Shown here piece after piece: positions 30,001-33,000 of a stretch of 64,000 bases of DNA. The position numbers are program-made. How positions within the stretch are numbered: the stretch's first letter is position 1; each line of letters begins with the position of its first letter. This DNA comes from Escherichia coli (GTDB lineage Bacteria > Pseudomonadota > Gammaproteobacteria > Enterobacterales > Enterobacteriaceae), in assembly GCF_030013595.1 (NCBI RefSeq), contig NZ_CP122768.1; one strand, given 5' to 3'.

Positions 30001-33000
30001 CAGAGAAGTATCAGTCCGTTGTGTGCAATTCCGTTCTGCATGATGAAGAGATTCAGCTGCCTTTTCGCAGACCATTAACCACTATAAACGATCGATGGTA
30101 ACGATCGATACCTGTTTTATCGATCGTTTTATTCTATTAACAGCAAGGCAGTCACGCAAGAGAAAGAGGTGGGTATGAGGGGGGGGGGTCATGTTTTCAG
30201 TTGGTTAACGCAATGTAATCAGGCATTTCCCCTGGCAGAGTGTTCAGAAGAAAATCCAGTTCCATACAGCGCGGGCAACAGAGACCACCGAGTCACGGAC
30301 GGCACGCAGAACCGTGCGTGCAACAGAGGCAACACAGACGCTCTCCGCTGTGTCAAATATCCGGTCCACCGCACCGGTAAACTGTTCACGGGCCTGAGAC
30401 CGGACAGATTCCGTGCGCAGCTCGTCCTGCAGGCGGGTCATCAGGGGACTGGGGCATGGTCGGGAAGCGCTGTCATGAGCGCACTGACCAGCGTATCCAG
30501 TTCCCAGCCGGTGCGGGCCGATACGGCCACAACCGGATGTACGGGCCGGAACAGACGGAATACCGCCTCCGTTTTTTCGCGAATATTCTGTGCCTGTGCG
30601 GGAGAAGGCTGAATACCGGCCATATCCCATTCATGGCAGGGCTCCGTTTTGTCGGCCTGCGTCACCACAAACAGCACCTGCTGATGTCCCCGGTGCAGGA
30701 TGTGTCGCCAGAAATACTCATCCACAGACAGGGCGCGGTCATCGGCTTTAATCAGCCACAGCACCAGGTCCAGTTCGGGCAGAATGTCACGGTACAGGGC
30801 TTCATACTCTGCATCCCTGTCCCGGCTCTCGCCCACCCCGGGCAGGTCAGTGATAACCATGCTGTGACCGTGGCCACTCAGACGGAAGCGCCGCACTTCC
30901 CGGGTGCCGGCGTGAACATCACTGACCGGGGTGACCTCCCCCTGAAACAGCGCATTACAGAGTGAGGATTTACCGGCCCCGCTTTTCCCCATAATGCCAA
31001 TCACGGGTTCGTGACTGGTGAGTTTGCGCAGATGTTCCAGGATGTGACGGGAAAGCGAGTAAGGCAGGGAAGAAAGTGGTTTTTCAATTGCCTCAATGGC
31101 ATCAGACGGATTCATACATGTATTCCCGGTGAAAAAAGACAAAACCCCGCGCACCGGAAAGGTGGCGGGGGATTCACGGAGATAATATCTGTCTGAGATT
31201 ATTTAGAATGTAACAGGTAATGAATTACTTCCTTCGCTTGTGTTCAAGATATTTTTCTGTAATCAGCATTTCAAAAAACTCTCCTGTTCTCAGACCGTAA
31301 ACAGTTCTGAGTTCATCAAGCATTTCTTTCGCATTGCTTCTTATATGTATATTAATAGCCTTTTTACCATCACTCCGATATTTGTCTTTTTGTTTTTTTT
31401 GATGCCAGGCATGATTTATGCGTGTTCTGAACAGTTCAATGGTATCAGGTGCCTCTTTCCATAAAGCAAAGGCGACGAGAGAGGCAAGATAATATTCTTT
31501 CGTTGAAGATGGTATGAACCACCGGGTCACCGGGTTATGTACCGGATGTGTTTCATCCTGTTTTTGTTTCAGTCTTGTCCAGAACCACTGACACATTTCA
31601 TCATCGTCAGGAAGGAGCCACTTAAACTTTTGACAAGCGCTTTTATTTTTAAGCCACGTCTGCCTGAGTTCCTCGAGGTATATGCTTTTTGCATTTTTAT
31701 TAATTAAAGCATGACAGGAATCAAAATATGAAATGATTACTTTTATTCGTTCGTTATGGGATGATGGATTATCCGGAAGGTTACTTTTTTTGTAAGTATT
31801 TAACGTTTCATCGGTAACTGTTCGTCTTTTTCTGACTTCAATTCCGTTTTTTATCCCTGATGAATTATGGTTTATTTCCGGGAAATTTGTATGGTCTTCC
31901 TTCGACAGATAAATAGTAGTCCAGGTAAAGAAAGTCGCAAGTTCGTCAGTTTTCAACCAGAGAAAACTCTCTTCAGGCAGTATTGCCTGCCCTGCAATAA
32001 TTTCAAGTTCATTAATTTCTTTGCTGAGAGCTTCTTCTGCAGTCGAACCAAAAACACCAAAAGAATTGTTTGAAGCTTTATAATACTTTTCTTTTAAAAA
32101 CGAATTAACATTTCTGATACAGTTTTGTGGGTTGTCAGGCGCAAACTGAGGGAATTCATTGGGGTATTTGTGATTCAGATATTCGGCATAAAACCGACAT
32201 TTACGGGGATCTTTGCATTTGATAAGCATCTGTTCGTTATTCATTATCTCACTCCATGGCGCCTCTCTTATAACAAAATCGTCTCAATTTTATTTTGTCA
32301 CTAAGTGATTATCAAATGTTTTTGTTGTGATTTGTTTGTGTTTTTAAATGTTTATGTCATGTTATCAGTGTTTTTATATAAAGATACATTGATGTTTTTA
32401 TGATGGTAAAAAATCATATTTTCTTTTATATTCATTGAGTTATGCTTGTTTGCTCTGCATTTGGGGGATGACAGAAAAGAATGGGCTGTGTTGATCACAT
32501 GCGCCGTATGCGCTGTCCAGGTTACAGGGCACCTCAATATTCAGCGTTTTCCTGTTGACTGGCATTGTTAATATTATGTTTTGGTTTTGTTTTATTGTGT
32601 GGTTGTGAATGTTGTGTTTAGTTTGATGGTTGAGAAAGAAAAAAGAAGACTATGATGCACTAATCAGGAAATATTTTCGACGCCGGTTGAGTTAAAAGAA
32701 CAGATAGAGTGGACAGGTGTTGTGTTAATAGTTTACGGCTGACAGTATTCTTATTTTAATAACAGGTGTTATTATTTATAGATTTATACAGACGATACTC
32801 CCGATAAATAGTCAGGTGATGATGGTCGTTGAGTGGTTTTATAAGCTACGTATAGCTCTGTAAGACTTATTAATTCAACGATGACTACCGTTTATTGATA
32901 TACCTGTATTCGGGAAATGTCATAAAAAATGTCACGTTGTTTGCAGAATCTTTTGTTTTTTAGTTTCTGATACGCAATGACTAAGCAGGAGGACTCACTT

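What the first reader, a model, noticed from the sequence alone, without database searches (positions are those of the whole stretch)
30244..31154. YeeP-like GTPase is a frameshifted pseudogene
The P-loop-containing N-terminal frame and the conserved C-terminal frame overlap between about 30441 and 30630, so a frameshift has split the gene. This mirrors the decay of such GTPase genes seen in cryptic prophage islands.
Basis: partly seen in the sequence, partly recalled or inferred. Interest (0 to 1): 0.25.

Follow-up and report, generated by a model that had tools for sequence, protein, structure and literature searches.

The report
Frameshifted YeeP-type GTPase pseudogene
A GTPase gene of unknown function next to the Ag43 adhesin gene in an E. 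coli genomic island has lost one base, which cuts off its conserved tail; this is an ordinary, very recent pseudogene, or possibly a sequencing error.

Summary
The minus-strand gene (ATG 31115, natural stop 30246-30244) lacks one base between window 30453 and 30452. In the sense strand GCC-GCC became GCC-CC at codon 222. Translation now ends at TGA 30443-30441, giving 224 of 290 residues.

The Era/Der-like G domain is retained. The strongly conserved C-terminal helical hairpin (residues 222-290) is out of frame. Putting the base back gives a 290-aa protein identical to one seen on 26 public contigs.

The same pheV island in assembly GCA_030346045.1 differs from the window by two substitutions plus this deletion over 19.4 kb. 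The deletion allele was not found in 5,426 complete E. coli genomes, in the species-representative genomes, in the metagenome contigs or in a 15-billion-protein collection.

Other E. coli carry independent frameshifts in this gene (KKo009, NIPH17_0036), and K-12 yeeP is 5'-truncated. Decay of this family is therefore routine. Programmed frameshifting is rejected.

A sequencing error cannot be excluded without reads. The window also holds a second private 1-nt deletion, A6 to A5, that splits mutY. Interest is low.

The parts
30441..31115 (-). Retained reading frame: 224 codons plus a premature TGA. It encodes the N-terminal helices and the complete G domain of the YeeP-type GTPase.
   Evidence: Translation. 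Pfam MMR_HSR1 E=4.7e-15 over residues 39-151. PDB profile hits to Era, Der and IRG G domains span residues ~35-221.
30966..30989 (-). P-loop (G1) motif GKSGAGKS, residues 43-50, intact.
   Evidence: Sequence. K44, G46, G48, K49 and S50 are invariant in 35 homologues.
30452..30453 (-). Site of the 1-nt deletion. The sense-strand G (plus-strand C) that lies between these two bases in intact alleles is missing; it is the first base of codon 222 (GCC GCC to GCC CC).
   Evidence: Alignments to CRE1540, Z1323CEC0010 and GCA_030346045.1. The position is unambiguous because the lost G is flanked by Cs.
30441..30443 (-). Premature stop codon TGA (codon 225) reached after three out-of-frame codons (Pro-Val-Pro). 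It overlaps the ATG of former Met226 as TGATG.
30244..30452 (-). Out-of-frame remnant encoding residues 223-290 and the natural stop (30244-30246). This is the conserved C-terminal helical hairpin ending in VARAVWNWIFF.
   Evidence: C-frame translation. Alignment to YkfA residues 223-287, E=7e-13. Many invariant columns in this tail. AF2 helices 236-260 and 264-289 at pLDDT ~82-94.
31116..31154 (-). Upstream extension of the mechanical ORF (GTG start). Probably not part of the gene.
   Evidence: Annotated homologues start at MNPSD. The 237-aa form is not in the protein collection.
29891..30127 (-). Context: Rfam IS102 RNA / Ag43 regulatory region with clustered GATC sites, between the GTPase gene and the Ag43 gene.
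   Evidence: Rfam RF00124, 68.1 bits, E=5.6e-10. Sequence and alignment.
27026..29872 (-). Context: intact Ag43/Cah autotransporter gene (948 codons) immediately downstream, in the same yeeP-flu order as K-12 CP4-44.
   Evidence: ORF. Syntenic annotations.

Best explanation
This is a YeeP-type GTPase gene, a backbone gene of CP4-44 / CP4-57 / SRL-type integrative islands, here in a ~30-kb island at tRNA-Phe. It was inactivated very recently by loss of a single G at the first position of codon 222.

Shown: the ribosome reads 221 native codons, then Pro-Val-Pro, and stops at TGA 30443-30441. The 224-aa product keeps the whole G domain but lacks the last 69 native residues.

Inferred: that tail is a confidently predicted two-helix hairpin with many invariant positions, so the truncated protein is most likely non-functional. 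The locus is a young pseudogene that has had no time to accumulate further lesions.
For: The deletion is the only difference in the gene. The CDS has 0 mismatches to the intact allele of GCA_030346045.1. Across 19.4 kb of the shared island there are only 2 substitutions and this one indel.

The repaired protein is an exact match to a known 290-aa protein on 26 contigs. Intact 873-nt copies occur in about 4,070 of 5,426 complete E. coli genomes.

The tail is conserved. A221, S223, P224, L229, V238, Q241-A242-R243, F246, V250, V273-R274, V277, R282, W285 and F289 are invariant in 35 homologues down to 59% identity. AF2 gives mean pLDDT 82.8 and pTM 0.82, with tail helices at pLDDT ~82-94.

Independent frameshift pseudogenes of the same gene exist: KKo009 (loss of G at nt 136), NIPH17_0036 (loss of AC at nt 411-412) and P0064 (A-run).

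Indels against the nearest relatives are rare elsewhere in the window: none in 21 kb against HCP5S3_I2. The lost G was not inside a homopolymer (CCGCC), which is atypical of run-length sequencing errors.
Against: No reads are available. The deletion allele is private. It has 0 exact matches in 5,426 complete E. coli genomes, in genome contigs and metagenome contigs, and among 15 billion proteins. A private allele is what either a fresh mutation or an assembly error would look like.

A second private 1-nt deletion in the window hits an A6 run in the core gene mutY. That is a classic error context and raises the prior for assembly indel errors.

Loss of function of the truncated protein is inferred, not tested. 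The family has no known function.
Confidence: 0.62

Rival explanations
1. Sequencing or assembly artefact. The organism carries the intact 290-codon gene and one base was dropped in the consensus.
For: The allele is unique to this sequence in every collection searched. Apart from the missing base the gene is identical to an intact public allele. The window holds another private single-base deletion in an A6 homopolymer that would inactivate mutY, a core gene that matched in 5,423 of 5,426 complete genomes, none of them carrying this deletion.
Against: The lost base is a G between Cs, not a run-length change. About 59 kb compared with the nearest relatives shows only these two single-base indels plus one 3-4-nt intergenic indel, so the assembly is not generally noisy in indels. 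Frameshifts in this accessory gene are common in finished genomes: 2 of 60 sampled records.
Confidence: 0.33
2. The two frames are joined or both used on purpose. One version is programmed -1 ribosomal frameshifting. The other is a functional split gene, with a 224-aa G domain plus a 65-aa tail re-initiated at the overlapping TGATG.
For: The deletion creates C-runs (GCC CCA G and GTC CCC TGA), where a P-site tRNA-Pro could re-pair in the -1 frame next to a stop codon. The stop overlaps an in-frame ATG of the tail (Met226) as TGATG. Low-level leakiness at such sites is known in general (my own knowledge, not tested here).
Against: No canonical X XXY YYZ heptamer lies in the overlap, and there is no Shine-Dalgarno sequence before the ATG. 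The two-frame arrangement is not conserved. Every close allele and all 35 aligned homologues are single ORFs, and the arrangement occurs nowhere else. A singleton cannot be a selected recoding signal.
Confidence: 0.03

Closest known systems
Intact allele of the same gene (P0001; UniRef A0A2W6Q711_ECOLX, 'GTPase family protein') in the same pheV island of E. coli GCA_030346045.1
   Same: The coding sequence is identical at every aligned base. It sits in the same island at the same chromosomal site with the same neighbours (339-aa hypothetical protein upstream, Ag43 downstream).
   Different: It has the G at nt 664 and therefore a single 290-codon ORF.
PGAP-annotated 'GTPase family protein, frameshifted' pseudogenes in E. 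coli KKo009 (L6L68_RS14250) and NIPH17_0036 (FLY99_RS20170)
   Same: Same gene family at 96-97% DNA identity, inactivated by small deletions.
   Different: The lesions differ: loss of G in a G4 run inside the P-loop (nt 136), and loss of AC at nt 411-412. Both destroy the G domain, whereas the window's lesion spares it. In KKo009 the downstream gene is a dynamin-family gene rather than Ag43.
E. coli K-12 yeeP (b1999), CP4-44 cryptic prophage pseudogene
   Same: Orthologous type, 97.3% identity over window-gene nt 321-872. Same yeeP - IsrC/IS102 RNA - flu (Ag43) order.
   Different: K-12 lacks the first 320 nt, including the start and the P-loop; IS2/yoeA debris lies upstream. Its 3' part is in frame. 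The window has the full length with one internal frameshift.
E. coli K-12 YfjP (CP4-57) and YkfA (CP4-6), intact 287-aa paralogues
   Same: Same architecture and end-to-end alignment (50% identity to YfjP, E=2e-98). Same kind of island, next to DUF932, antirestriction, RadC, YeeT and CbtA/CbeA genes.
   Different: They are divergent paralogues with a 4-residue gap near residue 163, adjacent to DUF932 rather than Ag43, and intact.

Membership tests
YeeP/YkfA/YfjP island GTPases (PGAP 'GTPase family protein'; Pfam MMR_HSR1 G domain) | P-loop G1 GxxxxGK[ST] | tested here: met
   GKSGAGKS at residues 43-50; invariant in 35 homologues; MMR_HSR1 E=4.7e-15.
YeeP/YkfA/YfjP island GTPases (PGAP 'GTPase family protein'; Pfam MMR_HSR1 G domain) | G3 DxxG and G4 [NT][KQ]xD motifs | tested here: met
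   DLPG at residues 90-93 is invariant. TQAD(K) at residues 152-156 has Q153, D155 and K156 invariant.
YeeP/YkfA/YfjP island GTPases (PGAP 'GTPase family protein'; Pfam MMR_HSR1 G domain) | End-to-end homology to YfjP/YkfA, including the conserved C-terminal tail ...VVSVARAVW(D/N)WIFF | tested here: met
   Met at the DNA level only.
YeeP/YkfA/YfjP island GTPases (PGAP 'GTPase family protein'; Pfam MMR_HSR1 G domain) | Single uninterrupted ORF of ~287-291 codons | tested here: not met
   The ORF stops at codon 225 after a 1-nt deletion. It is therefore a pseudogene member, not a functional one.
YeeP/YkfA/YfjP island GTPases (PGAP 'GTPase family protein'; Pfam MMR_HSR1 G domain) | Genomic context: backbone of a tRNA-associated CP4-type island, beside Ag43 and/or DUF932, antirestriction, RadC, DUF987 and CbtA/CbeA genes | tested here: met
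   Window ORF order and syntenic annotations. tRNA-Phe and integrase at the island end. Same order in K-12 and in the SRL PAI (PMC6980539).
YeeP/YkfA/YfjP island GTPases (PGAP 'GTPase family protein'; Pfam MMR_HSR1 G domain) | GTP binding or hydrolysis and a cellular role | not testable with these tools
   The papers read gave no functional data. NCBIfam, PADLOC and PHROGs gave only generic G-domain hits below their cut-offs.
Programmed -1 ribosomal frameshift genes (e.g. dnaX, IS1/IS3 transposases) | Two-frame arrangement conserved among homologues | tested here: not met
   No other sequence has it. All aligned homologues are single ORFs.
Programmed -1 ribosomal frameshift genes (e.g. dnaX, IS1/IS3 transposases) | Canonical slippery heptamer X XXY YYZ in the overlap | tested here: not met
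   None lies between 30630 and 30441. There are only C4 runs, one of them created by the deletion, and an A6 run.
Programmed -1 ribosomal frameshift genes (e.g. dnaX, IS1/IS3 transposases) | Downstream stimulatory RNA structure or upstream SD-like element | not tested
   Not pursued, because the two preceding features failed.

The most novel reading that the evidence does not exclude
The lesion might be leaky rather than null. The deletion created GTC CCC TGA, a run of four Cs next to a stop codon. A tRNA-Pro in the P site could slip -1 there and make a same-length protein differing only at residues 222-223 (AS to PV). Alternatively, the TGATG stop-start overlap could allow re-initiation of the 65-aa tail, which might reassemble with the G domain. 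Either route would leave the island GTPase partly functional despite the frameshift.
Probability: 0.05. Interest if true: 0.3.

Novelty: already known. Interest (0 to 1): 0.08.

Why it matters
It matters little. It is one more example of accessory-island gene decay in E. coli. It is useful mainly for annotation: call one frameshifted pseudogene, not two ORFs.

It also serves as a quality flag, because together with the mutY deletion it marks two sites worth checking against reads. If real, the near-identity of the island to an intact copy dates the inactivation as very recent. The lesion would also give a natural tail-less allele for anyone testing what this uncharacterised but very widespread GTPase does.

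Tried and rejected
**Programmed frameshifting.** Rejected: there is no canonical heptamer and no conservation.

**Search for the deletion allele elsewhere.** All searches were negative. They covered 120-nt megablast against 5,426 E. coli genomes, exact-pattern scans of genome contigs and metagenome contigs, and exact look-up of the 224-aa and 237-aa products.

**Identifying the source assembly by exact protein look-ups.** The window's Ag43 is not on record; it carries a private T302I change. The GspM allele is too common to be informative.

**Was the strain a real MutY-deficient mutator?** Of the two island substitutions against GCA_030346045.1, only 28968 is clearly derived in the window. It is a G-to-A transition, not the G:C-to-T:A signature. 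The other, 30187, is polymorphic among relatives, so the test is uninformative.

**Specific family or defence-system assignment.** NCBIfam, PADLOC and PHROGs gave only generic G-domain matches. The PDB holds no member of the family; the best fold match is the IRG protein Irga6 at TM 0.55.

**Antisense ORFs over the gene.** The plus-strand ORFs 30169-30612 and 30456-30965 were not searched. I took them to be by-products of a GC-rich gene.

Full report
**Observation**

Mechanical ORF listing shows two overlapping minus-strand ORFs, 30441..31154 (237 aa, GTG start) and 30244..30630 (128 aa).
- The first contains GKSGAGKS and matches Pfam MMR_HSR1 (E=4.7e-15) and other G-domain models.
- The second has no Pfam hit, but it ends in ...VVSVARAVWNWIFF, the C-terminus of the YeeP/YkfA/YfjP proteins.
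- Its last 65 codons align to K-12 YkfA residues 223-287 (E=7e-13).

**The lesion**

Megablast of the region against 5,426 complete E. coli genomes finds full-length matches in about 4,070 genomes, annotated 'GTPase family protein'. The best matches span one base more than the query.

Alignment to the intact 873-nt gene of strain CRE1540 shows a single gap. Sense CCATGCCGCCAGTCC is CCATGCC-CCAGTCC in the window. The same gap appears against Z1323CEC0010 and GCA_030346045.1.

In window coordinates, a plus-strand C is missing between 30452 and 30453. In the gene, it is the G that begins codon 222. The frame then reads Pro-Val-Pro and stops at TGA 30443-30441, which is codon 225. The true start is the ATG at 31115, as in annotated homologues. 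The stretch 31116-31154 is only ORF run-on.

**How recent the lesion is**

Re-inserting the base gives a 290-aa protein that is an exact match to a public protein found on 26 contigs. The 224-aa and 237-aa truncated products are absent from a 15-billion-sequence collection.

One carrier of the intact protein, GCA_030346045.1, has the same island at the same chromosomal site. Over 20,873 aligned bases there are 68 mismatches and one gap. Sixty-six of the mismatches lie in the gspL/gspM flank (20270-21664). Inside the island (~21.7-41.1 kb) the differences are two substitutions (28968 and 30187) and this deletion. The GTPase coding sequence has none besides the gap.

The deletion allele was not found in any of the following:
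- the 5,426 complete genomes, where the best match to a 120-nt probe is 99.2%, meaning one gap;
- the species-representative genomes;
- the metagenome contigs.

**What is lost**

A profile of 35 homologues (59-90% identity) hits Era, Der, TrmE and IRG G domains in the PDB over residues ~35-221. The truncation therefore spares the whole G domain.

The missing 222-290 segment is not a variable tail. Many positions are invariant: A221, S223, P224, L229, V238, QAR241-243, F246, V250, VR273-274, V277, R282, W285 and F289. The last 14 residues are nearly constant across Enterobacterales.

An AlphaFold2 model (mean pLDDT 82.8, pTM 0.82) predicts helices 219-226, 236-260 and 264-289 with block pLDDT ~82-94. 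The best whole-chain fold match is the IRG protein Irga6, with 283 aligned columns and TM 0.55. This suggests a G domain clasped by N- and C-terminal helices.

Loss of function of the truncated product is an inference from this conservation. The family has no tested function. The papers found mention it only in gene lists or as an unremarkable knockout. NCBIfam, PADLOC and PHROGs give only generic sub-threshold G-domain hits.

**Is such decay usual?**

Yes. In a sample of 60 records taken evenly down the ranking:
- 50 best copies are 873 nt and one is 876 nt;
- two have frame-breaking lengths (872 and 871 nt);
- seven are truncated, including the K-12 lineage, which matches only nt 321-872.

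The two odd-length copies are annotated by PGAP as 'frameshifted' pseudogenes. Their lesions are at other sites: loss of G at nt 136 in the P-loop, and loss of AC at nt 411-412. A further allele, P0064, shifts frame at the A6 run near codon 182.

In K-12, YfjP and YkfA are intact 287-aa proteins. yeeP is a 426-nt annotated pseudogene missing its 5' end.

**Rival: programmed frameshifting**

Restoring the frame would need a -1 shift between 30630 and 30441. That interval holds no X XXY YYZ heptamer, only an A6 run and two C4 runs, one of them created by the deletion itself.

More decisively, the two-frame state is a singleton. All close alleles and all aligned homologues are single ORFs. This rival is rejected.

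A residual possibility is unselected leakiness. tRNA-Pro could slip at GTC CCC TGA, or translation could re-initiate at the TGATG overlap with Met226. This is speculative and I rate it at a few percent.

**Rival: sequencing error**

This cannot be excluded without reads.

Against it:
- The lost G sat between Cs (CCGCC), so it is not a run-length change.
- The window has no indels against its nearest relative over 1-21000.
- Over 46693-64000 it has only two.

For it:
- One of those two is a second private single-base deletion, A6 to A5 at 59231-59235. It truncates the core repair gene mutY at codon ~167 of 350.
- That deletion is absent from all 5,423 complete genomes that matched this mutY segment.

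Two private single-base deletions in 64 kb, one of them in a homopolymer of a housekeeping gene, keeps the artefact explanation alive. I put it at about one in three.

**Context**

The gene lies in a ~30-kb island between gspM/yghD (ends 21708) and tRNA-Phe (52285-52360), with a P4-type integrase at 50822-52087. Genomes with the same GspM but no island run gspM directly to yqgA-speC.

The gene order is Hha, AlpA, hypothetical proteins, GTPase, IS102 RNA/GATC region, Ag43, DUF932, antirestriction, RadC, DUF987, CbeA/CbtA, DUF5983 and DUF4942. This is the known backbone of CP4-44, CP4-57, CP4-6 and the Shigella SRL island.

**Verdict**

This is an ordinary frameshifted pseudogene of a known, functionally uncharacterised family. 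The lesion is precisely located and very young, and its reality is unverified at the read level. Interest is low.

Noticed in passing
window 58655-59703 (-), lesion at 59231-59235: mutY is split by a private 1-nt deletion in an A-run (A5 here, A6 elsewhere). The product stops after ~166 of 350 residues. None of the 5,423 complete E. coli genomes that matched the segment has this deletion. It is either a natural mutY-defective (mutator) strain or a homopolymer sequencing error.
   Followed up: partly
window 39322-47717: The island's BREX-1 system is incomplete. brxL, pglZ and the 3' 832 codons of pglX are present. The pglX 5' part and brxC, brxB and brxA are absent, and an IS903B-like transposase ORF (46749-47717) sits in their place. 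Strain NCTC9699 has the full set at the same position (L018).
   Followed up: partly
window ~21750-52360: A ~30-kb genomic island inserted at tRNA-Phe (52285-52360, -) with its integrase at 50822-52087. It also carries a phosphoethanolamine transferase (49001-50500) and an outer-membrane beta-barrel protein (48101-48841). The empty site in other genomes is gspM - yqgA.
   Followed up: partly
window 20270-21664 versus 21700-41115 (compared with L006): The island is almost identical to that of GCA_030346045.1 (2 substitutions in 19.4 kb). The adjoining gspL/gspM genes differ at 66 sites in 1.4 kb. This suggests recent horizontal transfer of the island or recombination at its edge.
   Followed up: no
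window 29891-30127 (-): Rfam IS102 RNA (68 bits) overlaps the Ag43 upstream region with clustered GATC sites. This is the known Dam/OxyR phase-variation switch region (my own knowledge). Its sequence differs substantially from the K-12 yeeP-flu spacer.
   Followed up: partly
window 30179-30188: A G10 homopolymer (C10 on the gene strand) lies between the GTPase stop and the Ag43 regulatory region. In GCA_030346045.1 and several other loci the run is interrupted (T at 30187). Long runs like this are prone to slippage and to sequencing error.
   Followed up: no
window 28968 (Ag43 codon 302): A private G-to-A change (ACA to ATA, T302I) in Ag43. All 13 comparison loci have G, and the window's exact Ag43 protein is not on record in the public collection.
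   Followed up: partly
homologues P0039, P0046, P0047 (alignment A2); locus L014: Some family members have a divergent N-terminal ~110 residues joined to a C-terminal part nearly identical to the E. coli YeeP type, which suggests recombination within the gene. In strain KKo009 the GTPase gene is followed by a dynamin-family gene instead of Ag43.
   Followed up: no
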